Source of the DNA: the human T2T-CHM13v2.0 reference genome, Homo sapiens
Length of the DNA: 64,000 nucleotides
Strand: one strand, 5' to 3'
Assembly (NCBI RefSeq): GCF_009914755.1
Contig: NC_060936.1
Of the stretch, positions 18,820 through 53,658 are shown piece by piece. The notes under the pieces are model-generated. The model was not told the origin of the DNA. It did not search any database and worked only from the letters and a program-made list of their open reading frames with translations. Numbering within the stretch: position 1 is the first letter of the stretch; every line of letters begins with the position of its first letter. A program made the position numbers and the translations under genes.

Positions 18820-20088
18820 CGGGTGCAGTGGCTCACACCTGTAATCCCAGCACTTCGGGATGCCAAGGTGGGTGGATAACTTGAGCTCAGGAGTTCCAGG
18901 CCAGCCTGGTCAACATGGTGAAACCCTGTCTCTACAAAAAATACAAAAATTAGCCAGGCATGGTGGCTCATACCTGTAGTCCCAATTATTCAAGAGGCTC
19001 AGGCACGAGGATCACTTGAGCCTGGCAGGTCAAGGCTGCGGTGAGTCAAGATTGTGCCACTGCACTCCAGCCTAGGTAGCAGAGTGAGTGTAGGGGTGGG
19101 TTGCCCCTACACACCTGTGGGTGTTTCTCATAAGGTGGGACGAGAGATTTGGAAAAGAAAAAGACACAGAGACAAAGTATAGAGAAAGAAATAAGGGGAC
19201 CCGGGGAACCAGCGTTCAGCATATGGAGGATCCCGCCAGCCTCTGAGTTCCCTTAGTATTTATTGATCATCTGTGGGTGTTTCTCAAAGAGGGGGATGTG
19301 TCAGGGTCACAAGACAATTGTGGGGAGAGGGTCAGCAGACAAACACGTGAACAAAGGTCTTTGCATCATAGACAATGTAAAGGATTAAGTGCTGTGCTTT
19401 TAGATATGCATACACATAAACATCTCAATGCTTTACAAAGCAGTATTGCTGCCCGCAGGTCCCACCTCCAGCCCTAAGGCGGTTTTTCCCTATCTCAGTA
19501 GATGGAGCATACAATCGGGTTTTATACCGAGACATTCCATTGCCCAGGGACAGGCAGGAGACAGATGCCTTCCTCTTGTCTCAACTGCAAGAGGCATTCC
19601 TTCCTCTTTTACTAATCCTCCTCAGCACAGACCCTTTACGGGTGTCGGGCTGGGGGACGGTCAGGTCTTTCCCTTCCCACGAGGCCATATTTCAGACTAT
19701 CACATGGGGAGAAACCTTGGACAATACCTGGCTTTCCTAGGCAGAGGTCCCTGCGGCCTTCCGCAGTTTTTGTGTCCCTGGGTACTTGAGATTAGGGAGT
19801 GGTGATGACTCTTAAGGAGCATGCTGCCTTCAAGCATCTGTTTAACAAAGCACATCTTGCACCGCCCTTAATCCATTTAACTCTGAGTTGACACAGCACA
19901 CGTTTCAGAGAGCACGGGGTTGGGGGTAAGGTTATAGATTAACAGAATCTCAAGGCAGAAGAATTTTTCTTAGCACATAACAAAATGGAGTCTCCTATGT
20001 CTACTTCTTTCTACACAGACACAGTAACAATCTGATCTCTCTTGCTTTTCCCCACAGTGAGACCCTGTCTCTTAAAAAAAAAAAAAAA
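18820..20088 (+). mobile_element. Alu split by the LTR5_Hs (18820-19088 and 20057-20088)
   Basis: The Alu resumes after the LTR as gtgagaccctgtctc plus an A-tail. Confidence 0.92.
19089..20056 (-). mobile_element. HERV-K(HML-2) LTR5_Hs solo LTR inserted inside an Alu
   Basis: 968 bp. The minus strand starts TGTGGGGAAAAGCAAGAGAGATCAGATTGTTAC and ends CAACCCACCCCTACA. 5-bp TSD GTGAG (19084-19088 and 20057-20061). Minus-strand TATAAAA at 19520-19526 and AATAAA at 19259-19264. Confidence 0.97.
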
Positions 20089-22148
20089 GTAAAAGAAAGA
20101 AACGGTTCCTACCTTCAAGGAGCTCGCCTTCAAGTGGGGGAAATAGCCATGGAAATAACAATTAAAAAAAGTGCAACGACAGAGACATGCTTGATAATAA
20201 TTAGAGAAAGGGGCAACTGGAAGTTGTGTGGAAAAAAGGAGTAAAGAGAATTAAAGACTTTAAAATATAGCATCTAGGGCAGATATTCAGGAACTTGAGC
20301 CAAAGTGCCCCTACCTCTTCAGTAAGATGTGAAGGGGAGATATCTGATTGTTCTTCCTGATGTGATTGAGTGTTAAGTTATTATGTTTGGGGCCTGAATG
20401 GAGAAACACCTGGATGCATGGGGGAGTTTTCTCTTGAATTGATTCTGTTTGGCTGGACAGGTTAAGAAATATTTCTCCAAATCTTTCTCTATTTCAAGTA
20501 TCCAAGTCATTCTGTCTCTCTGGGATCATAGGAGGACCCAGGGGAGGGGTAAGCACTGATGGGACATTGGGCCCCCCTCTTTTTCAGGGAGGTACCCCAG
20601 AAGTATCACTCTGACTGCCTGGGAAAAATGAAATTCTCATGTTCATCATTGGAGTCACATTTTGCTAACTTTTGACTATTTGTCTGAAATCCCATGAATG
20701 TTCCTTAAAAGGTTGTTTGTTAGGGAGAAGAATCCCTGGGAGCTATTGAAGCTGTTTAAAACTCTTTGTAAACAACAGCAGTCACGGGAGAGTTTTGGAC
20801 AGGGTAATGATCAATCAGATTTTGCATATTAGAAAGATAATGATGGCAGCAATATGGAGGGTGAGTTGATGGGAGAAATGCATTAGGCTATTGCAGTAGT
20901 TCAGGTGAGATCACCTGCACTGTGGGCAGTGTCAGTAAGGGATGGATAATTTTTCTTCTGATAACTTTAAGTGATAAGAGAGACAGGAGGTGATAGAGGG
21001 AGACATGAGGTGGATGTTCTTTTTTTTCCCCCAAGATGAAGAGTCCTGAAGCATGATTATAATATAGGGGGAAGGAAACAATGAATATAAAGGTTAAAAA
21101 TACAGAAATATGGCTCTTCAGCTTGAATATTAAATAGATTTTCCTCATTTATTTCTTCTAGTACTTGAATAGTCATGAATAGAATTAGAAATTGAGGATA
21201 GGTTCAGATTTTTGGGAGGCTTTTGAAGAAGTGCATAGGACTGAAGTAAAAGTGCTATGATTCTTCACATCAGGTACCTAATATGTTCATAATATTTTAG
21301 GGATACTGATAGGTAAAGTGCCTAAAAGGAAATCAGCACTGTATATCATCTCATTTAATTTCCTGTAACAACCTTTTAACAGATAATATGAGCTCCATGT
21401 TACAGATGAAGAACTGAGGTATAGAGAGATTATATACCTTGCTCAAGATCACACAGCTAAAAAGTGGTAGAACAGGGAAACAATGTGGGCCTTTAACTCC
21501 AGAACTCATACTGATAACTGCTATGTTTACTGCCACTTAACACTAGGTATTGAGATTTTTTTCCTCCTCAAATCTGTTGGGCTTGATAGGTTTAAATGTG
21601 ATGCTTGGTGGTAATTGTCTGGGGTGAGTGGTTAGTTAACTTAATTTTTCTTATAGATTTCTCTTCTAAATAGCCCTTTGGAGTTCTACAGTTATAGTTC
21701 TTCTTGACAATTACAGCAATGTTAAAATCTTGGAGGAAGGGAATGTAGGGGAAATTTGGCAGATGACAGAACAAAGCAGGTAATAATGTGAGCTTTCAAA
21801 TTATACAGTCCTCAATTTGAATCCCAGCTGTGCAAACTGCTAGATGTAAGACCTTGGAGAATTTTCTAGCATTTGGGCCTTAATTTCCTCATTTGTAAAA
21901 ATTGTTGTACTAGTGCTCAATAGTTTCTATGCCCAATAAGAATAATTTGTTACATGAATAAAGTATAACTTTTCACAGTCACTATCATCAAATGGCACTT
22001 TCAGACAGGAAGCTGAAATTGCACCTCAATGACCCTAGTGGAGCTGCTTCCCCCTACTCCATGCCCTTTACCCCACTCCACCTGATGTTGGCCTTCTTGG
22101 GTTCATTAACCCTCAATCTGAGTGTTCATGTGAGTGCCTACTTTCCAG

Positions 22149-28514: not shown

Positions 28515-31500
28515 GTAAGTCCTGGGACGTTTCACAGCGATGCTGCTTATTGGGTAGAAGTTATGCAAAGGAATGAGGCATCTTCTTTCTTTCAGCCTAC
28601 TTCTCTGTGGTGGGAATTTATTGGCTGAAGAATGACTTTTCAAATGGAACCACTGACTAGAAGTATTATGAATATATCAAATATCGTATTCATTCATTCA
28701 AGTTTCTCAAATCACCTACCATGTTTTGTCTCACCTCCAGTCCTTCCTACCATTGTTCCCTCTGATTTGAACACTCTTCCCTTTCCTCATCTCCTGGCTA
28801 ACTCCTACGTACCCTTAGTCTCGGTTCTTGTGTCACTTCCTTTGGAAAGCCTTCTAGGACTCTCTCTGGATGAGGTTAGGTGTTCCTGCTATGTAATATC
28901 ACAGTATTGAGCTCTGACCTCCCTTCCCCACATTACAGCCTTTATCATACTTCATTATTATTGGTTGATCTATTGTCTTTTCTGCTAGGCTGTTTATTCC
29001 AAAAGGGCAGAGGCTCTATTATATTCCTAGGACCCAGCACAGTGCCCTGAACAGAGTAGGCTCTCAATGTCTGCCAAATGAATGAATATTTTTAGAATAA
29101 TGTCTGTTCTGTAGCATGGAATGGACTAGGTATGATAAATGTTGAGTGATCATTTTAGGTTAAGAAACTCCCTTAGGGTAGGAAGATAGGTACTATTTTA
29201 GGTGTGTGTGCCTCAGAATAGGCAATCTACTCTTCTAGGCCAACATTTTAAGGACAGATGTCCAAGGAGGAGGTAAGTGAGGGAAGCAGGTCCCCAGAGT
29301 AGGAGGTTTTATTCCCTAGGTCAGAAGGTGGTAAACGAGAATGATATTTTGGGTTAGTGTGATATCCAGGGGTGTCCCCAGAGAAGGTTGAGACTATGGC
29401 TCTGTCTCTGTTAAGCTGTGCTGTGTCTAAGAAGGTTCTGCTGGGTAGAGATTCTCAGGGCAGGACTGAGATCATGGAAATTAGCTTTTATGTCCTCTAA
29501 CCCCTTGCTTTCTTCTTTTCTGCCTCCTTGCTTGAGGTTGCTTTCCTTACTCTTCTATCCTCAGCACTCTACCCAGTGGAAACTCAGAGTTATTTTGGAA
29601 TTGTGGAAAGCATTTTATTTTTCCAATCTTGGAAATTCAGGGAGAAACCAGGAGAGGAGACAGAAACAGGAGAGAATGGCACTTGACTAGCAGTGTCCTG
29701 CAGAGAAGCATGTTTTCTGGTAGGAAGAATGTATTGGAGGGTAGGGGAAGATAGCTGTGCTCTGGGAGGGAGCATTGGTGGAAAGAAGGAGTCCTTGCAA
29801 TGGAAGGGCCACTGAAAAGGGGAAGCAGCCTTCCCTTTTTAAAAAACATTTTCTTTAAAGTTGGGAGAGATCTGAATTGGGTGGGGAGGCCTGGTATTGA
29901 GAGGCAGTTCAAGGGAAGCATATGTCCTCAGAAGGGGTTCCAGGATTGAGACTGTCCTAGAGGAGGTGGTAATTTTTTTCAGGAAAAGGTTTTGAGTATG
30001 GATTTGATATTTCAAAATTATAATTTATCTTTTGGATATAAAGGGTGTCCACACTTTAGGAACTTAGAATTTGAAAGTAGTAGAATTTAGGGCAACAAGG
30101 TTTTCCTCAAACCAATATCTGTGCAGAGATGAGATTTTAGGTTGCTCTTTGTGCCAAAGAAAACAAATAGATTAGCATCCCAGGCTTTGTGAGAGGTGGT
30201 CACTTATAATCAATTCCACCTGAGGGTTTGGGAGACCATTATATTGGATCTCAACAGTTATAAGATCTTGGTAATGGTGTCTGATGTCCCCAAGAAAATC
30301 CCATATTGCCAGGATCATCATATTCTTATTCACAAACCGCAAGTATCTTAACTCACAAATTCAAATGGAGTTTGAAGGAGTTCTCCCATAATGTCATGTC
30401 AGGAACTTCTGGAATTGACAAAGCTAAAAGGAAGCTCTGGGCTCAGAGCTTAGCTCTGCTTGATATGGGAGATGCTTCCTCTTTCTGAGCTTCTGTCATT
30501 TTTCTTAGAGCCCTTAGTAAAGGGCCTCAAGCCATATGACCTTCCTCCCATTGTAGCCCCTTAGGCAAGGTGACATAATGGCTGCATAGAGAATCACATT
30601 TCCAGGCCAGCTCTGGCCTCTTTCTCAGTCTCAAATTATGTGGGAGGTAAATGTGAGTCTTTTTTGTATATGGACATCCTATAAGTTTCTGTACTTTCCT
30701 GGACTGCACAAACTAAAACCACATTAGTCTGGGTTTTATAATTTTTCGGACTATTAGTTGTGTTTCTTGGAGATGCAAAACTGCTTTATGCTTGTCATGT
30801 TGCACAACCTTGGAGCAAGACTTGGATAACATCTTACGGAATGTTATCCTTGTTGGATGGAGAAGTATTTGAAGGCAGGGTGAAGTAGACTCTAAGAAGA
30901 TGGGAAAGGAGACAAAATTGAAATGGTACTCTGAGTTCTGTATGATCTGACCCTCCAAGCCAGGTTTAAGACAGATCTTAAACCTCCCTGATATTGACTA
31001 AGGCAGGGATGCCATAAGTAACAAAGAAGGAAATATGACTAGAGTGTTCCTAGGCCGGAAGCTCCACAGCAAGGAGGGTGCTCTGGAAAGGGGTTTTTCA
31101 GGGTATATTTCTGTCCCTTATTGGGGATGCCACTTTTGGGAAGGGTTAATGGAAAAAAGAATCAGGAGCTGCTATCTCGATGATCCCCCCACACTTCAAA
31201 CAGGTTTCTTCCAAAGTATACCAGACAAATGGATGGCTGGCCTGTTTCTAAAGCCCTCCAGGGAAGGGCTCCTTAAGTCAATGCTCCAGAGCCTAGTGAC
31301 CCTCTACGCGGGTAAGTCCTCTCTTGCATCAAACTTAAACTCATATCCCTGTGTGCCTCCTGCCCCAGAAAACTTGAATGTGAAGGGCAGTGTTGAAAGG
31401 GAAAGGAAATCCCAAGTACAGAAAGAAGCATCCATGCCTGATGAATATCTGTTGTAGATGTGCAATCATAGTCTGATTTTATGCATGAATGAGGTATGAG

Positions 31501-31736
31501 GCTGACTCCATAAAGTGTTCAGAAATTATTTTATTAATTTATAGTTATACCATCCATATGAGCCTCAGATCTTTCCCCGCCTTTTAATAACTGCTAGACT
31601 GACAGATGTCTTCCCTTTCTATGGCTTCTTAGAAATCCATTTCACATAAATCTTTTGTCTGTTGCTCACAGACACTCCTGTCCTCCTGTGTCTAGGGGCT
31701 GAGTATTCATTGCAGCATCTCAGGTAGCCTCAGAGT

Positions 31737-31778
31737 ATGTGTGTGTGTGTGTGTGTGTGTATGTGTGTATGTGTGTGT
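31737..31778. repeat. Interrupted (GT)n microsatellite
   Basis: Directly visible. Confidence 0.93.
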
Positions 31779-33268
31779 AGGGGGTCACTATTATGCAGGG
31801 ATATTTTCTCACAGAATTATGCTTTCCAGAGGAAGGTGACTGGTAATGAAGAGGTAATAATCGCATGGTAATAAGATGCTATGTTAGCTAAGAACCCAGG
31901 AATACTTGAGTCTTGCCCCAGATAAATTATTGCTGCCTGCAAGGTTATTGAGGGGCTATTTACCTAGAGGAGAAAGCAAGACAAAGTGACACTTTATTAC
32001 TAACTGAAGCATTGGTCCCAAACCCTGAAGCAGAATTCATGATTTAGGCTAGACCATGTAGATAGCTTCTTTACCTGAGCTAGGTTTGCCAGATAGGCTA
32101 AAACTAAGGCAGGTCACAAGGCTGGCTTTGCTTCTCTTCCCTAAGCCCAGACCCAGATTATGATGTTACTGCTGTAAGCTGAGGAAAGGTGAATCCCAAC
32201 TATACCCACCAGAACCAGAGGAAAAGAGCAGGTGGGTGTCTGTCCTGTGTCCACCTGGATACCCATTATACTAGCTAGATGAGAGAGAGTGTTCCAGGAG
32301 AAAGAGCTGGCTGGATCTTCTCCCCTAGCATACAGATCCCAGGCCTCCTCATACTCCTCCAGGCTTCTAGGTGACAGAAGGAAAGAAAGAGCTTGCCAAG
32401 CCTCCTTCCGTGAGAGAGTAGCTTGTGTGTTTTTTAAAAATAGCTTTTTATTATAGAGAATTTCAAACATATAAAAAAAAGGGAGAATAGTTTAATGAAC
32501 CCCCATGTACCCATCAACTATTACCAACATTTTGCCAATCTTGTTTCATCTATTTCTTCTCACTTAATTTTATTTTTATGTTTTCTAGATTATTTTAAAC
32601 CAAATCACCGACATACATTTTACCTGTAAATACTTCAGTATGCATCTCTTTAATTAGGACATTAAAAAAATTATCATGCCATTATCAAATCTAACAAAAT
32701 TAACAATCATTCTTTACATTGTCTAATGCTCAGTTCTTATTAAACTTTTTATGATTGTGTTAGCAACATCTTTTTAGAGTTCATTTGTTTGACATAGGAG
32801 TCAAAGTTTGCATTTGGTTATTATGTTCCCATTCTGTAATAGTCCCTTTTCCTTTTTTTCTATGCCATTTATTGGTAGAAGAAGCCAGGTGATTTGTGCT
32901 ATAAAATGCCGAGTGGCTCTTTTTGTTATTCACCTGACAGCCCTCACCCTGGTGCAGTGACTCCACTCTTAGAAAAAGTGATTGAATTGGGAACACATCT
33001 CCTCCTTAGGGATATTTTGGTCTTGGTCTGTCTCATCTTTGAGAAGAGGAGAGGGGCCCTGAAGTCCTGCCACCAAGTCCTGTTGATTCTACCTCCTGAT
33101 TAGCTCTTGAATCCATCCACTTCTCATCCTAATCTATGCTCCATTCATTATACTACCACAGAGTGGTCCTTCCAGAATGTATGTTTGATTATGTCACTCT
33201 TCTGTTTATAGTTCTTCAGTAACTTGACATGCTATTAGGATAAAGTTTTAATTCCTTAAAACCATTTC

Positions 33269-39841: not shown

Positions 39842-40003
39842 GAATGCCAGGAGATGCATGGAGAGTTCATGGGATCTGCGTGCGGCCATCATGGACCCTA
39901 CACTCCTGATGTCCTCTTTTGGTCCTGTATTCTCTTTTTCACCACCTTCATCCTCTCAAGCACCTTAAAGACGTTTAAGACGAGCCGTTATTTCCCAACC
40001 AGA
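39842..40003 (+). CDS. SLC4A8: SLC4A8 exon 16 (ECQEMHG...KTSRYFPTR)
   Basis: ctccag|GAATGC ... CAGA|gtaggt; 162 nt; ends in phase 0. Confidence 0.96.
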
Positions 40004-40983
40004 GTAGGTAGCATGTTCATGCATTTCTTTCACGTTAGAATCAAATATAACAGAACCTTTTCTCAGCCTTCATGCTGCTTATGGGGTTGATTGGCCAGGT
40101 GGAGAACTCCAGATGTCCTGATGAGCCACACTGGCATTCTCTCCTAGTGTCTGGCAGCCTCTTTCATAGATCTGTGGTTGGGAATGAAGGGTTAATACTT
40201 AAAACCTTTTTGGTTTACAAGTGCCAGTTAAGGTTAAGGTGGTAGTGATGGTTTTTTAAAAGTTATTAAGTCTTATTTCCAGAATGCTGTTACGTTTCAT
40301 TTCCAGAATTCTGAGACACTTAACACACAATAGCTACAGCTGGCTCCTGAATACAGTAAATTGTCATTGTGACCTTGGATACTTTAGGGGACCCAAAAAT
40401 CTTCTCCCAGGGATGGCTTTTTTAATAGCTTATGAAATCACTGGCGACACTGACTGCAGCAACCAGCATGCTCCTGACTTAGTTTGTATGACTGTTTGAA
40501 ACCTCAGCAACCTTTCCATGATGCAGATAGCATTGTTTGTATTATGAGCAAGGCTTTTGCCAGTTTTGGCAGGGCAAGATTAGAGGCTGAGTGTGGAGTA
40601 GCTACATGGGCCATTTCTTTGAAAGGGAACTTGAGAAGGTGGAGAATGGCTACTGGGACCTCATCACAGAAAGTTAACACTGAAAAGAATAAGTGCATGA
40701 ATTATTTACATCCTTCAGTCACATGGAAACATCTATAATAAATGACCATTACATTTGCCATATCAAAAATATAAAAGGAAGGTGGGTGATCTACAGTGAC
40801 CACAAAGTTTGTGCCACAGAAGGGCCCCCTGAAGGCCTGGGTTACATGTACTTTTACCACAGTATACCAAGCTAAACCTCAAACATACGAATCAGTGAGA
40901 AGAAGCCACATACCTTTTTAATTTGCCAAAAAGTTAGAACAGCCAGATATGAAGAAATACATTGTGTATTTGTAGTTTATTTA

Positions 40984-41348
<365 letters not shown>

Positions 41349-41671
41349 TCATATTAGTGATGATACACTATTGTAGATAGTTTTAATAAATGTTTAAGTA
41401 GAAGATAATATAAAAAAGGGTGTTCATTTTGCTGGCGAGAGATCTACCATCAGTACATCAAAAATGGGGATGTGCTCCCAGTCCTCTATTGGGGGATAGG
41501 TGCTAGTGGCCTTCAGAGAAACCTATTTATGTGGCCAGTGGTGTGGCCTTACCTGCAGTAAATAAAAAACCTTCTTGGTGTTTCATATAGAAAATCAGCC
41601 ATTGGGCGGGGCATTATTTACGGCATTTTTTTTTCATTGCACACAATAATTTCTGACCTATACATGTATAA

Positions 41672-42015
<344 letters not shown>

Positions 42016-42642
42016 TAAAATATATTTTTAATTTAAATCATACAAAAATTCATAATATGATTTTGTGAATGTGTGTGAAAGTGTGAGACCTTTACATTTC
42101 ACTACAAAACCTGTGATGGTTTGGTTTTTAAAGGCTAAACGGTTGGTATTAAGCAAGTAAATATTTTAATGAAACTATAACTCAGGAACAGTTTAAAATA
42201 TTAGTTTCCCACTTAGATTTCAAGGCATAAAAAGGGCTGAGTTTATCCCTTTAAGTGCTGTCAAGAATTCACTTGGGTTTGTGATATTTGGTGGTACAAT
42301 GCCAAATGCCCACAGCAGCATTATATTGTACTTTGCCAAAGGTAGACAGAGGAATTCTCTATTTCTCAGCAGTCGTTTCCCCAAAAAGTATAATGTTTAT
42401 TTTTAGTTAAAATAGTCTTGTTTTACCATACCACATGATGACTCCCTGGAAGTTATCATGTGAAGTTCCCCAAATTAGTATTTTCTCATCTCTGAGCTCT
42501 TTGCCTGACTCCATTTCTACATTTTTCAGGGGCCAGAGGCTCATCTCTGCCATTTTTCCATGTATCGCCTCCTGATTTGACTTCACTGATTATCTGCTGT
42601 GACTAGCAGTGTTATTTTGGATACTTTAAGAATTTCAGATGT

Positions 42643-43249
<607 letters not shown>

Positions 43250-44206
43250 TCAGACGCAAAGAAACTTTATATGATATTATAAAAGACAGTCCTTTCCATT
43301 TTGGTTTATTTCAGTATTTTAGTTGCAACCTGGGATTAAATTGGAGTTTCAAATGTGATGAAAAGTAGAATGATAACATTCTGTAATTTTCCTACTGCTC
43401 TGCACCAAATTCCAGAGTCTCTGGAGTTTGTATTTCAAATTATTCAGTCGAATGAAACAGGATTTATTGCTGTCTGCTTAACATATATTTGTTTGGTTGA
43501 AAGGATTTTTCCAGAAACTGTAGGAAAATGAAGCAGAATCAACTGGGTGAAATATAGCACAAACATTGGATTAGGATGTGGTGAATTGTGAGCAATCAGG
43601 ATTCTGGTTGTGACTGGGGCCCCTGTCTCATAGGAGCTTAATACCATGTGAGCCAGGGACGCAGTGTCCAAGGCCCATGGCCTGGAGACCTGGATGCTGG
43701 CTGTGGACCTTGGGCAAGTCCCTCATCTTCCCTGTGCCTCACCTCATCTGCACAATGATGTGATGACACCTGCCATCTCTTTCCAATTATGCTTCAAGGA
43801 TGCAGTGAGATTTGATATGATGACCCAAGAGTAGAAGGTGGTGTGCCATGGTGTGTCCTAGTTTAGCATGCTCCCTGCCTTCTCTTCTCTGACATTTTAT
43901 TCAATTTGGGAACAGATGGGATTGGCAGGAGGGGAGCTCATGGTGTAGTAATACTCTACTAAAGTGTGCCTATTGGTATTACCTTCTAATGTTGAGTTGG
44001 ATTTCCTAAAGCAGCCCACTTTGTTACTGAAGTTGCTGACTCCTGTGGAAATCCCCACACTAAGCAGCCTTACAAAATCCAGTCCCCATAGAATAATGAC
44101 TCCACACAGGCGTCAAAAATGGATTGTCTTCAATTATGTTACAAAGCAAACACCTTTTTGGGGGATGGAGGATGATTGGGTGTTTGGATTGAAATGTAGA
44201 CAAAGG

Positions 44207-44503
44207 GGCTGGGTGCGGTGGCTCATGGCTATAATCCCAGCACTTTGGGAGGCCAAGGTGGGTGGATTGCTTGAAGCCAGGAGTTCCAGACCAGTCTGGC
44301 CAACATGGTGAAACCCCATCTCTACTAAAAATACAAAAATTAGCTGGGCGTGGTGGTGCATGACTGTAATCCCCACTACTGGGTTGAGGCACGAGAATTG
44401 CTTGAGCCCAGGAGGTGGAGGTTGCAGTGAGCTGAGATCGTGCCACTGCATTCCAGCCTGGGCGACAGAGTGAGACTTGGTCTCAAAAAAAAAAAAAAAA
44501 AAA
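44207..44503 (+). mobile_element. Alu (S-type)
   Basis: Full dimer; TSD aaatgt(a/g)gacaaa. Confidence 0.92.
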
Positions 44504-44769
44504 TGTGGACAAATATAGCTAGCAAGTGTATTTTGAGCAAAATACATATTTTATAATAAAATTTTATAAATAAACTTTGTAAAATCAATGGTATAAAATC
44601 AATATTTAAGATTATAGGCTATATGTTACTTAATTTCATTAAATAGAAAAAGAAATTCAGCCCTTCTGATGCCTAAACATATTGTAAGAAAGTGTACTAT
44701 GGCTGCCCTTTTTTCTGTCTCACGAAACAGAGGGCTGTTTCTACAAGGCCAAGTTTTGTATAAATGGAA

Positions 44770-45028
44770 TTTTTTTTTTTTTTTTTCAGATGGAGTCTTG
44801 CTCTGTCGCCTGGCTGGAGTGCGGTGGTGTGATCTTGGCTCACTGCAACCTCCGCCTCCTCCCGAGTAGCTGGGACTACAGGCACGCACCACCACAGCCA
44901 GCTAATTTTTGTATTTTTAGTAGAGACGGGGTTTCCCCATGTTGGCCAGGATGGTCTCAATCTCTTGACCTCGTGATCTGCCTGCCTCGGCCTCCCAAAA
45001 TGCTGGGATTACAAGCATGAGCCTGGCC
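44770..45028 (-). mobile_element. Alu with internal deletions (host of the candidate exon)
   Basis: Lacks the ...gggttcaagcgattctcctgcctca... segment. Confidence 0.92.
44790..45020 (+). CDS. SLC4A8: Candidate Alu-derived alternative terminal coding exon of SLC4A8 (MESCSVAWL...MLGLQA*)
   Basis: Long T tract plus CAG acceptor (AG 44788-44789), in phase with exon 16; 76 codons then TGA; AATAAA at 45149-45154. Confidence 0.6.
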
Positions 45029-46424
45029 AAGTGCTATTCTTTATTTCAGATTGAGAGTTGGGAAAAATTGGAGCAAATAATGGATTTCTTTCTTGCTTAA
45101 AATGTATTTATATGTATGTCTTATTATATACAAGGCAGATTTCCCTGGAATAAAAGTCTAGAATGTACTGCTTAATTTTACACATGTGTGCAGGCAATAT
45201 TATCTGTGAGTGAAAAGTGGAATAATACGTGGATTGGGTCAACTGATTATCAGCTTGTTAGGAGTCCTCTGTGTGAGACATGGTGGTATAATTGTGAAGT
45301 TCTCACTGTATGTGGATGTTCATGTGAAAGATAGTACTTTCTTCCCGTAAATATCTTTTGATTTCCATTTGTATGGAATCCCAATGAATGTATCTTTGGA
45401 AAACATAATGTGTCAAAATTTGTATTTTGTTCATTGATCTAAATGCCCGTGTAACTAATCAGAAATCCAATTTGGCTCAGATTGGGAATTTTCTTTTAAA
45501 GGAAAAAAATTTACAGAAAAGACTACTGGAAGAATCATGTTCAAATGACATTTCACATCAATGTTTCTTCAATATTTTGGAGTTGACTTGGTTGTTTTCT
45601 CCTACCTACAATAGAATGTGCCTGCTGTTTCTCTGTCGCTCACTTTGGGCTTGCAGGAAGTACAACGGGAATAGCCTGAGCTTCTTGCTCCCTGTATAAT
45701 TTATTCACTTTACCTGAACTGCCTTACCTGCAGTTCATAGTGAGAACACCTGGGCTTGTAACTTGCCTCCACTTTTAAGTGTGATAGGGCCAAGTTGCTT
45801 TACCTCTCTGGGCGTTTTTCTTTAAAACGAATGGGTTAAACTAGATGAGCTCAGAAGTCCCTTCCTGCCCTAACATTATCTTCTATTTTTATTTTCCTGT
45901 GGTTACTACTATTAGGGTCAGACATGTGAAATGTGAGGGACCATTTAGAGATTTAGATGTTATATTTTTGGATTATTACAGAGTATACACCCAAGTTTAG
46001 GACCTGTGTCATTTTTAGTGTCCCCACCCCGTTTCTATTTCTGTTCCATTTGTCTTTACTTTCTTTGTAATCATCTCATTTTTTTTCCACTCTTGAAACT
46101 CACAACTTTCCAGTCCATGAGCAACTTTGCTACCATCCCCCTCAAAAACAAATCTATTTAAAACACCCTCCTAGAAAAGCCTCTGAACCACCTTCAGCTA
46201 AATCTGTAACGTTTATAGAATATTTTAAAATCTTAATTCAGCTAGAGTTATGATCCCCAAACAAGTGCTGACGAAGCTATCACAGAAATGATGTCTTTTT
46301 CACCTTGTAGGTATCATTGTTGCTAAATCACATCAGTACAGGCCTTCTGTGGGGAGACAGCAGGGGGCAGGGGCAGGACTAGGGGATGGGAGTAGATAAA
46401 ACTGTGATTCTATCCTTTACTTTA

Positions 46425-46775
<351 letters not shown>

Positions 46776-46881
46776 AAAGTTCTCTACTCTTAAGTTGGTA
46801 TATAAGATGACCTGCACAGTGTCACAGAGATTTCCCACTCAGTAAATCACTCTGAAAGAGTTTGCATAAGATTCTGTAGAT

Positions 46882-47507
<626 letters not shown>

Positions 47508-48539
47508 TCTACACTTACATGGTTTGGGGTAGGCAGTGAAATACCATAGGTAGAAAAGGTAATTCAGTGAAGCATCCAAATAGACAGAAACAACACAAAT
47601 ATTTTTGCTGGAGTCAGGAGCACTATGTGGCACAGAACACCTCCCAGAAAGCAGAAAATTTTTCTGCCTGAAAACCAATGTATATGTAAGACCCCAAGTA
47701 AAAAACAAAAGCAAATGAGCCCCAAACTGTCTTCCCTCAGCTTTGCCTGGGAGCTGCTATCTTTGCACTTATTTTTCTAGCATCAGGATATTAGCCACAT
47801 GAGGGAGCCAAGCATATTTGTCTCATTTTAGGCATCATTCTTTTGTGGTTCCCCCCACCCCAGGTATTGTTGAGTCTGTCCAAAGCTGGGTGAGATACCA
47901 CACAAGTCTTGCTTCCCTCAGTGTGCTGCTTCTCTCGGCCTTGGTGGAGGCTGAGCCTGTTGCCGGTACCCACCAGCCCAGTAGGTTTTGATGCTGCCTC
48001 CTGAAAGAGATTGTATTTGTTTCGTTTTGCACTAGTCACAGTTGTTGTTTAAACTACATCAAATTTGGGGGGAGAATATTTGCCTGTGATGGAAAGAGAG
48101 ATAGATGAGTTATTGCTTCAAGTGTTTTAAAATAAAAGCTATTCTCACACACAAAAAAAAAAAAAGAAAGAAAAAGAAAAGAAAGGGAGCTCAAATCAGG
48201 AGGAAATGGTGGTTTTTCCTGTAAGTGAGGTTTCAGCCAGACACATTTTCTTTTTCTTTTTTTCTTTTTTCTTTTTTTTTTTAAGTCAGTAGTGGTTTAT
48301 TAAATGGTTGTATCACATCTGGAAAACATTATTCAAAACATTTATTCAGCGTACTTCCTGTTCATATTTTAGAAGATGTAAAGCAATGAAATTTGCTCTA
48401 AATAAATGGCATTTTTTTTGCCATTATTTGGCATCTTGCCAGGTTACTTTTTACATCCAAGTTCAAGTGATATTTTGTTCTCAAAATAAAATAATTTTCA
48501 AGGTTTGGAAGTATAATGCGAAAATTTTAACAGGGATTC

Positions 48540-53496: not shown

Positions 53497-53658
53497 CCAA
53501 CAAGGGATGATCGCGGATGGATTATTAATCCCATTGGCCCCAATCCCTGGTGGACTGTGATAGCTGCAATTATCCCAGCTCTTCTCTGTACTATCTTGAT
53601 ATTCATGGATCAGCAGATCACAGCCGTCATTATTAACAGGAAGGAACATAAGCTCAAG
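53497..53658 (+). CDS. SLC4A8: SLC4A8 exon 18 (PTRDDRGW...[18 protein letters not shown])
   Basis: ccttag|CCAACA ... CAAG|gtaaaa; 162 nt. Confidence 0.96.

What the first reader, a model, noticed from the sequence alone, without database searches (positions are those of the whole stretch)
44770..45170. Composite alternative last exon: Alu splice acceptor and ORF, with a retrocopy-region poly(A) signal, truncating the transporter
Seen: the antisense Alu reads T-tract-CAG|ATGGAG where the consensus has GAG, which makes a strong 3' splice site. The frame matches the phase-0 end of exon 16 and stays open for 76 codons, helped by internal Alu deletions. AATAAA lies 129 nt after the stop. Splicing would give 724+76=800 aa, or 747 aa from Met54; I recall a ~747-aa database isoform but have not verified it. 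Inference: two nested retroelements together build a last exon that avoids NMD. It would yield NDCBE with the cytosolic domain and only the first part of the membrane domain, lacking the DQQIT region. Because SLC4 proteins dimerise, it could act as a dominant negative or simply lower full-length output.
Basis: partly seen in the sequence, partly recalled or inferred. Interest (0 to 1): 0.8.

Follow-up and report, generated by a model that had tools for sequence, protein, structure and literature searches.

The report
Alu-derived alternative last exon of SLC4A8
An old Alu repeat inside an intron of the human bicarbonate-transporter gene SLC4A8 has acquired a strong splice acceptor and supplies an already annotated alternative last exon that would cut the transporter in half; it is real, but known to the databases and of untested importance.

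Summary
The sequence observation holds. An antisense Alu (44770-45028) reads T17-CAG|ATGGAG. The exon ending at 40003 ends in phase 0. The frame from 44790 is open for 76 codons to TGA 45018-45020, and AATAAA lies 129 nt further on.

It is not new. The hub's RefSeq table lists exon 44790-45405. A published Alu-exon catalogue (Attig 2016, supplement) lists what is almost certainly the same exon, with acceptor scores of 13.03 in human, 4.28 in chimpanzee, 3.5 in gibbon and 3.97 in rhesus.

The "nested retroelements" idea is correct. Window 40696-48152 is an intron-less, 5'-truncated retrocopy of a USP5-family gene on chromosome 3, and the Alu is absent from that parent.

The proposed poly(A) signal is doubtful, because both annotated exon ends lie 235-280 nt beyond its expected cleavage site.

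Two likely brakes on use exist: the 17-nt U-tract, which is hnRNPC-repressive according to Attig 2016, and a predicted 230-bp duplex with an inverted Alu 258 nt upstream.

Eight macaque brain A-to-I "coding" sites, including the published "SLC4A8 R713G", map exactly onto this Alu ORF.

The product would keep the cytosolic domain and roughly TM1-6 and could not transport. Any dominant-negative role is untested.

Verdict: an ordinary, already annotated Alu exonization with a possibly human-specific strengthening.

The parts
39842..40003 (+). SLC4A8 exon 16, the upstream exon whose donor would join the Alu exon. It ends in phase 0 with codon AGA and is followed by GTAGGT.
   Evidence: Its 54 residues match NDCBE structure 7RTM chain A residues 221-274 (E 1.2e-32).
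40696..48152 (+). 5'-truncated processed retrocopy of a USP5-family gene on chromosome 3 (USP13 by recall only), in the same orientation as SLC4A8. Several later Alu insertions interrupt it.
   Evidence: It is collinear with G000:C3:182585267-182592925 at 75-83% identity. The parent's 2.2-kb intron (between 182585357 and 182587571) is absent from the window. The 59-aa remnant at 40696-40872 matches the C-terminus of USP5, 3IHP residues 798-853 of 854 (E 3e-18). Nothing upstream (40010-40700) matches elsewhere in the genome.
44201..44512 (+). Sense-oriented Alu with a 19-nt A-run (44485-44503). It is the inverted partner of the exon-forming Alu, 258 nt upstream of it.
   Evidence: 74% identity, minus-strand match; predicted duplex, MFE -452.6 kcal/mol, z -22.9. 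It is absent from the chr3 parent.
44770..45028 (-). Antisense Alu, called AluSc in Attig's table. It carries a 1-nt and a 29-nt internal deletion and a short deletion near its 5' end. It inserted into the retrocopy.
   Evidence: The parent positions 182590088 and 182590090 that flank the insertion are adjacent. I found no clear target-site duplication.
44770..44789 (+). Acceptor: U-tract of 17 followed by CAG. The C at 44787 replaces the usual Alu G.
   Evidence: Pyrimidine content at -20..-4 is 100%, against 59-88% for the 21 canonical exons. Published MaxEnt scores are 13.03 in human and 4.28, 3.5 and 3.97 in chimp, gibbon and rhesus.
44790..45405 (+). Annotated alternative terminal exon (RefSeq, hub table).
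   Evidence: Hub annotation. Positions 45406-7 read TA, so there is no donor. The hg19 exon in Attig's list is 660 nt, which would end near 45449, where TG follows.
44790..45020 (+). Alu-encoded open frame of 76 codons plus TGA, in frame with exon 16.
   Evidence: Eight macaque A-to-I sites map onto its codons 30, 36, 37, 44, 45, 53, 70 and 75.
45149..45154 (+). AATAAA 129 nt after the stop, with CA and a TGTGTG stretch about 30 nt downstream.
   Evidence: The parent reads ATAAAA with 3 nt fewer. The annotated exon runs past it.
45383..45388 (+). AATGAA, a weak poly(A)-signal variant (named from recall), 17 nt before the RefSeq exon end at 45405.
   Evidence: The parent has the same hexamer.
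48131..48165 (+). The retrocopy's own AATAAA (48131-36) and its A-run remnant (48153-65). In sense orientation this is a further possible intronic 3' end.
   Evidence: The match to the parent ends at 48149.

Best explanation
This is an ordinary, already annotated Alu exonization that makes an alternative last exon in intron 16 of SLC4A8.

Shown:
- An old processed retrocopy of a USP5-family gene from chromosome 3 lies in the intron, in sense orientation.
- An AluSc-type element later inserted into it in antisense orientation.
- Its poly-T end followed by CAG forms the acceptor.
- The Alu supplies 76 in-frame codons and the stop.
- Retrocopy-derived sequence supplies the 3' UTR and the transcript end.

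Taken from a published table: the acceptor score jumps from about 4 in chimpanzee, gibbon and rhesus to 13 in human. That fits the G-to-C change at -3 having arisen on the human lineage.

Inferred:
- Use of the exon is low. The 17-19-nt U-tract is the type bound by the repressor hnRNPC. The tract and the AG are predicted to be locked in a roughly 230-bp duplex with an inverted Alu 258 nt upstream. The nearby poly(A) signals are either bypassed (AATAAA) or weak (AATGAA).
- When the exon is used, the mRNA escapes nonsense-mediated decay, because the stop is in the last exon.
- The encoded protein has the cytosolic N-terminal domain, about TM1-TM6 and a 76-residue Alu tail. It lacks TM7-14 and the ion site, so it cannot transport.
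- The most likely net effect is a small diversion of pre-mRNA away from full-length NDCBE, not a working protein.
For: - Sequence facts.
- Only this Alu junction reads CAG: 1 of 14 aligned copies and 1 of 15 scanned junctions.
- The exon is listed in the hub RefSeq table.
- Attig 2016, fig5-data1, lists it as Aluexon:776: 'alternative', 'Emerging Exon', a + strand exon starting 21 nt inside a 257-nt minus-strand AluSc, with scores 13.03/4.28/3.5/3.97/-4.58.
- No GT follows either annotated end.
- Retrocopy: collinearity with chr3, the parent's intron missing, a USP5 C-terminus match, and AATAAA plus an A-run at the end.
- The Alu is absent from the parent.
- Repression by long U-tracts: passages of Attig 2016.
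- Duplex: MFE -452.6 kcal/mol, z -22.9; 230 of 258 Alu bases pair with the upstream Alu, including the U-tract and the AG.
- RNA over this Alu exists and is edited in macaque brain. All 8 listed sites fall on A's of the window at one constant offset, and 7 of 8 carry the same residue as the human ORF.
- Protein: DQQIT is at residue 800, downstream of the cut. Exon 16 maps to 7RTM residues 221-274. The SLC4 architecture comes from the NCBE paper: gate TM5-7/12-14, core TM1-4/8-11, long loop between TM5 and TM6, ion pocket formed by TM3/8/10 (passages).
Against: - No junction reads, 3'-end data or protein data could be examined here, so the level of use is unknown.
- A MaxEnt score of 13 with a 100% pyrimidine tract is stronger than every canonical acceptor context in the window. 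The exon is also transcribed 5.8 kb before exon 17. Use could therefore be higher than I infer.
- A macaque Ensembl model includes the exon although the rhesus acceptor scores only 3.97. Use may thus pre-date the human change, or that model may simply be projected from human annotation.
- The link between Aluexon:776 and this window rests on geometry and on my recalled hg19 position of the gene, not on a coordinate conversion.
- The exon is absent from Attig's GTEx inclusion table and from the Alubaster frontal-cortex tables, which hold 0 SLC4A entries although gene names are used. This fits low use, but it may also reflect those methods' criteria.
Confidence: 0.72

Rival explanations
1. The truncated protein (800 aa, or 747 aa from Met54) is made and acts on purpose. 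It keeps the dimerising cytosolic domain and part of the gate domain (TM5-6). It pairs with full-length NDCBE or a related SLC4 protein and holds it back or regulates it.
For: - The stop lies in the last exon, so the mRNA should escape NMD.
- SLC4 proteins are dimers, the N-terminal domain dimerises (review passage), and TM5-7 lie at the dimer interface.
- SLC4 genes do produce short variants carrying only the N-terminal domain, such as THYMU3021755 for SLC4A8 and rb7NCBE for SLC4A10.
- The acceptor gain on the human lineage shows the site changed recently.
Against: - The 76-residue tail is plain Alu translation with 7 cysteines. The same frame is open by chance in other Alus.
- There is no sign of selection. 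The ORF differs between human and macaque at 1 of the 8 checked codons and is heavily edited.
- A half transporter ending after TM6 is a likely quality-control substrate (inference).
- The three SLC4 reviews whose NDCBE passages I read do not name this variant.
Confidence: 0.1
2. The exon model is a by-product of incompletely processed RNA. The cDNAs behind it are rare or truncated clones. The reads and editing over the Alu come from unspliced intron 16. Any real processed transcript ends elsewhere, for example at the retrocopy's own AATAAA at 48131.
For: - The two annotated ends (45405 and about 45449) differ. Neither follows a canonical AATAAA or ATTAAA; only AATGAA lies 17 nt before 45405.
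- Clustered A-to-I editing at 11-47% is typical of intronic inverted Alus (general knowledge).
- The exon is absent from two junction-based lists.
Against: - The model's 5' boundary sits exactly at the CAG| acceptor, which argues for a real splice rather than intron retention (hub table).
- The same boundary is used by RefSeq, by UCSC hg19 and, judging from frame and offset, by a macaque Ensembl model.
Confidence: 0.18

Closest known systems
Alu exonization through the poly-T-proximal acceptor of antisense Alus. Attig 2016 (methods passage), citing Lev-Maor 2003, gives TGAG|AnGG as one of the two commonest Alu acceptor positions.
   Same: The Alu is antisense and the AG used is the first one after the U-tract. 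A single point change improves the site. A long U-tract accompanies a gain in acceptor strength, as that paper describes for 'emerging' exons. The exon is in that paper's own list.
   Different: Typical Alu exons are internal cassettes with a donor inside the Alu. Here no donor is used and the exon is terminal. The sequence beyond the Alu is a retrocopy of another gene.
Short SLC4 variants ending in intronic last exons: SLC4A8 'THYMU3021755' (isolated N-terminal domain with 15 unique residues), and SLC4A10 rb7NCBE (review PMC4664831).
   Same: Same gene family, and in one case the same gene. An alternative 3' end removes the transport domain and adds a short unique tail.
   Different: Those variants stop before the membrane domain. 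This one would keep about six membrane spans. It is not named in the NDCBE passages of the three reviews I read.
Transposon-derived alternative last exons that give truncated receptors. The listing shows PMC10515820 on interferon signalling and PMC7617988 on IL13RA1; I saw only the search-listing abstracts and recall the rest.
   Same: A primate retroelement supplies an alternative exon, giving a truncated membrane protein that could interfere with the full-length one.
   Different: Function was demonstrated experimentally for those. Nothing of the kind exists for this exon.
Inverted-repeat Alu duplexes as ADAR substrates (general knowledge; data in PMC12203800).
   Same: Two oppositely oriented Alus lie 258 nt apart, a long duplex is predicted, and A-to-I sites cluster.
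   Different: One arm here is annotated as coding. Its editing sites were therefore reported as amino-acid recoding of SLC4A8 (for example R713G), although canonical NDCBE has Lys at 713.

Membership tests
Alu exon (antisense Alu exonization) | Alu lies antisense to the host gene's transcript | tested here: met
   the element aligns with the window's other Alus with the T-tract first on the + strand. Attig's table lists the Alu on the minus strand and the exon on the plus strand.
Alu exon (antisense Alu exonization) | Acceptor AG directly after the Alu's U-tract | tested here: met
   T17-CAG|A, and the annotated exon start 44790 coincides with it. Published MaxEnt score 13.03.
Alu exon (antisense Alu exonization) | Spliced transcripts that use the site | not testable with these tools
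   Only annotation (hub table; the UCSC class 'alternative') was available, with no read-level data. The exon is absent from Attig's GTEx table and from the Alubaster tables.
Alu exon (antisense Alu exonization) | Donor site inside the Alu (cassette type) | tested here: not met
   The annotated ends lie 377-421 nt beyond the Alu and are followed by TA and TG. This is a terminal exon, not a cassette.
Alternative last exon by intronic polyadenylation | Acceptor followed by a functional poly(A) site before any donor | tested here: inconclusive
   AATAAA at 45149 is bypassed by the annotated models. AATGAA at 45383 precedes the RefSeq end by 17 nt. No 3'-end sequencing data were available.
Processed retrocopy (processed pseudogene) | Lacks the parent's intron(s) | tested here: met
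   Window 40697-40790 and 40780-40987 abut, while their chr3 matches lie 2.2 kb apart and are bounded by AG and GT in the parent.
Processed retrocopy (processed pseudogene) | Ends with the parent's poly(A) signal and an A-tail remnant | tested here: met
   AATAAA at 48131, match to the parent ending at 48149, A-run at 48153-65.
Processed retrocopy (processed pseudogene) | Target-site duplication | tested here: inconclusive
   Only A-rich, ambiguous similarity between the flanks, judged by eye.
Inverted-Alu ADAR substrate | Oppositely oriented Alus close together that form a long duplex | tested here: met
   230 of 258 bases paired, z -22.9 against 20 shuffles (prediction only).
Inverted-Alu ADAR substrate | Clustered A-to-I sites in RNA | tested here: met
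   The macaque brain tables of PMC12203800 list 8 sites within 137 nt at editing levels of 0.11-0.47. All 8 fall on A's of the human sequence. I did not see human read data.
Dominant-negative truncated SLC4 subunit | Protein is made, binds full-length subunit and lowers its activity | not tested
   No expression or interaction data.

The most novel reading that the evidence does not exclude
The G-to-C change at -3 of the acceptor arose on the human lineage; the published score is 13.03 in human against 3.5-4.3 in chimpanzee, gibbon and rhesus. It raised use of a truncating last exon in a neuronal and renal pH regulator. Humans would then make less full-length NDCBE, or a human-enriched half-transporter that pairs with it. 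Use would be tuned by hnRNPC and by ADAR editing of the inverted-Alu duplex that hides the acceptor.
Probability: 0.1. Interest if true: 0.6.

Novelty: already known. Interest (0 to 1): 0.3.

Why it matters
As it stands this is a textbook Alu exonization that RefSeq/UCSC and one published catalogue already list, so it adds little by itself. Three details may be useful.

1. The acceptor appears to have become strong only in humans, in a gene that sets neuronal pH. This can be tested directly with comparative brain RNA-seq.

2. The exon is a three-layer composite of host gene, USP-family retrocopy and Alu. It shows how a sense-oriented retrocopy can lend 3'-end sequence to an Alu acceptor.

3. 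The 'primate-specific recoding site SLC4A8 R713G' reported from brain editing surveys lies in this Alu exon, not in the transporter proper. It should not be read as a change to NDCBE function.

Tried and rejected
- Parker & Boron 2013 and Parker 2008, the papers most likely to describe SLC4A8 transcripts, are not held. I cannot say whether they mention this exon.
- Literature searches gave nothing specific. 'SLC4A8'+'Alu' returned 8 papers, none about this exon judging by titles and abstracts; I opened two of them. 'NDCBE-E' returned 2 reviews. 'SLC4A8'+'intronic polyadenylation' returned 0. 'THYMU3021755' returned 2. One search gave only general exonization papers.
- Attig's GTEx inclusion file does not contain the exon. 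The Alubaster supplements have 0 SLC4A entries.
- I looked for a target-site duplication of the Alu by comparing its flanks with the chr3 parent. I found none beyond 1-2 nt, plus about 7 extra bases next to the T-tract. I left this unexplained.
- I tested whether the deletions are needed for the open frame and rejected the idea.
- I checked whether exon 31341-32231 of the hub table is the THYMU3021755-type last exon. It is preceded by AC, not AG, and joining it to 28514 gives 12 residues rather than 15. I did not pursue it.
- The parent gene's name (USP13) comes from my recall of the map position and C-terminal sequence. The tools only show a USP5-family C-terminus.
- I tried no structure prediction, complex prediction or protein database search. 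The tail is Alu translation and the rest is canonical NDCBE.

Full report
**1. Observation**

The window reads 17 T (44770-44786), CAG (44787-89), then ATGGAGTCT from 44790. Translating the 21 in-window coding exons of the hub table gives one open frame. The exon ending at 40003 ends in phase 0. From 44790 the frame runs 76 codons to TGA at 45018-45020. AATAAA is at 45149, 129 nt after the stop.

Up to 40003 the window encodes 708 residues. With the 16-residue first exon stated in a review, that makes 724. The only Met in the relevant stretch is residue 54. The totals of 800 and 747 aa are therefore arithmetically correct.

**2. The Alu and its acceptor**

BLAST of the element against the window gave 31 rows of Alu matches. 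I aligned it with 13 near-full-length copies chosen by hand, leaving out fragments and weak copies. All 13 read GAG where this one reads CAG.

An independent motif scan of both strands found 15 junction-like sites: 13 GAG, 1 AAG and this single CAG. Genome-wide, the exact 22-mer with CAG occurs 537 times against 46,046 with GAG. The state is uncommon (1.15%) but far from unique.

The tract upstream of the AG is 100% pyrimidine. The 21 canonical acceptors in the window range from 59% to 88%, and their longest T-runs are 2-10 against 17 here.

**3. The open frame**

Relative to the other copies the element has a 1-nt and a 29-nt deletion, 30 nt in all, and the short form at the position where some copies carry two extra bases. 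I read every copy in the same frame from the junction. The first stop comes after 14 to more than 91 codons; two copies reach 72 and one exceeds 91. An open frame of 76 codons is thus within what undeleted Alus give. The deletions are frame-neutral overall rather than necessary.

**4. The retrocopy**

Non-Alu sequence from 40697 to 48149 matches one place on chromosome 3 of the same assembly (182585267-182592925), collinearly and at 75-83% identity.

Two adjacent window blocks (40697-40790 and 40780-40987) match chr3 blocks that lie 2.2 kb apart. In the parent these blocks are bounded by AG and GT. The window copy therefore lacks an intron.

Its first 59 codons (40696-40872) match the extreme C-terminus of USP5 in 3IHP (E 3e-18). 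The copy ends with AATAAA at 48131 and an A-run. Sequence at 40010-40700 has no other match in the genome.

This is a 5'-truncated processed retrocopy of a USP5-family gene. USP13 is my recollection only.

The exon-forming Alu is absent from the parent: the chr3 positions flanking the insertion are adjacent. So are the window's other Alus in this stretch. 'Nested retroelements' is correct.

**5. The 3' end**

The AATAAA at 45149 is not inherited. The parent lacks 3 nt there and reads ATAAAA.

The RefSeq exon ends at 45405. The hg19 exon in Attig's table is 660 nt long, which puts its end near 45449. Both ends lie beyond the expected cleavage site of that AATAAA. Neither is followed by GT, so they are transcript ends, not donors.

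AATGAA lies 17 nt before 45405. That AATGAA is a weak signal variant is my recollection. Which site is really used cannot be told without 3'-end data.

**6. What was already known**

The hub table lists exon 44790-45405.

The supplement fig5-data1 of Attig et al. 2016 (PMC5115870; I read passages and searched the supplements) lists Aluexon:776, chr12:51873774-51874433 (+), class 'alternative', 'Emerging Exon'. It lies in a minus-strand AluSc at 51873753-51874009. The acceptor scores and U-tract lengths are: human 13.03 (U19), chimpanzee 4.28 (U19), gibbon 3.5 (U16), rhesus 3.97 (U16), marmoset -4.58 (U5).

I equate it with this exon because the geometry is the same: exon start 21 nt inside a roughly 257-nt antisense Alu with a long U-tract. 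It also lies within about 140 bp of where my recalled hg19 gene start would place it. I could not run a coordinate conversion.

The jump from about 4 to 13 is what GAG to CAG would be expected to give. I did not see the primate bases themselves.

The same paper reports that long U-tracts recruit hnRNPC and repress Alu exons. The exon is not in its GTEx inclusion file.

The NDCBE passages I read in three SLC4 reviews name variants NDCBE-A to -E; two of them also name THYMU3021755. None names this variant. Alubaster's frontal-cortex tables hold no SLC4A entry although they use gene names.

**7. Duplex and editing**

A sense Alu (44201-44512) lies 258 nt upstream. Folding 44190-45040 as RNA gives -452.6 kcal/mol, against a shuffle mean of -245.6 (z -22.9, 20 shuffles). 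In that fold 230 of the 258 bases of the exon Alu pair with the upstream Alu. The paired bases include the U-tract (paired to the A-tail) and the AG.

A 2025 survey (PMC12203800; passages and supplement) names 'SLC4A8 (R713G)' as an editing site that evolved only in primates. Its macaque tables list Y698C, H704R, P705P, S712G, R713G, P721P, K738K and Q743Q within 137 nt of transcript ENSMFAT00000031037.

All eight fall, at one constant offset, on A's of the window at codons 30, 36, 37, 44, 45, 53, 70 and 75 of the Alu ORF. Seven of the eight carry the same residue as the human ORF. Seven of the eight are paired in the predicted duplex.

Canonical NDCBE has Lys at 713. These 'recoding' sites are therefore Alu-exon sites. 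The macaque model's 668 residues upstream of the Alu ORF are close to the 671 expected for a Met54 start. The edited reads may come from pre-mRNA.

**8. The protein**

Exon 16 matches 7RTM residues 221-274. It encodes the end of the Cys-rich loop and one hydrophobic span.

In the paralogue NCBE the long extracellular loop lies between TM5 and TM6. The gate domain is TM5-7 and TM12-14, the core is TM1-4 and TM8-11, and the ion pocket is formed by TM3, TM8 and TM10. DQQIT is at residue 800, in exon 53497-53658.

The product would therefore keep the cytosolic domain and about TM1-6 and could not transport. This is inference from homology.

**9. Reading**

- Most likely (0.72): a real but minor Alu-derived last exon that diverts a little pre-mRNA into a dead-end isoform.
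- Rival (0.18): a model built on incompletely processed RNA.
- Rival (0.10): a functional interfering protein.

None of these can be separated without read-level data, which these tools do not hold.

**10. Limits**

I had no RNA-seq, no 3'-end data, no primate genomes and no isoform database. The two Parker papers were not held. Supplements of other Alu-exon or polyadenylation atlases that I did not open may list this exon.

Noticed in passing
window 40696-48152 (parent G000:C3:182585267-182592925): A roughly 7.5-kb sense-oriented processed retrocopy of a USP5-family gene fills much of SLC4A8 intron 16. It consists of the last two exons, including about 5 kb of 3' UTR, and carries several later Alu insertions. 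Its own AATAAA and A-tail at 48131-48165 are a potential intronic poly(A) site.
   Followed up: yes
window 44878-45014 (macaque chr11:50386781-50386917 in PMC12203800 tables): The published 'primate-specific recoding' site SLC4A8 R713G and seven neighbouring macaque sites lie in the Alu-derived last exon, opposite an inverted Alu. Canonical NDCBE has Lys at 713.
   Followed up: yes
window 19087-20104: A roughly 970-bp repeat, 98-99% identical to at least 39 other full-length places in the genome. This fits the young solitary HERV-K (HML-2) LTR that a review says sits in an SLC4A8 intron and drives antisense transcripts (PMC5462908 passage). I did not determine its orientation or identity further.
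   Followed up: partly
window 44770-44786: The T-tract is 17 nt in this assembly but is given as 19 for hg19 in Attig's table. This suggests a length polymorphism in the element that both forms the polypyrimidine tract and would bind hnRNPC.
   Followed up: no
window 31341-32231: This 'exon of other transcripts' in the hub table is preceded by AC, not AG. Joined to exon end 28514 it gives 12 residues before a stop, not the 15 unique residues described for THYMU3021755. It may be a first exon or belong to a different transcript structure.
   Followed up: partly
window 46890-47170: This part of the retrocopy (query positions about 100-390 of 46790-47180) matches dozens of other genomic places at 70-77% identity. 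The parent's 3' UTR thus itself contains an older interspersed repeat.
   Followed up: no
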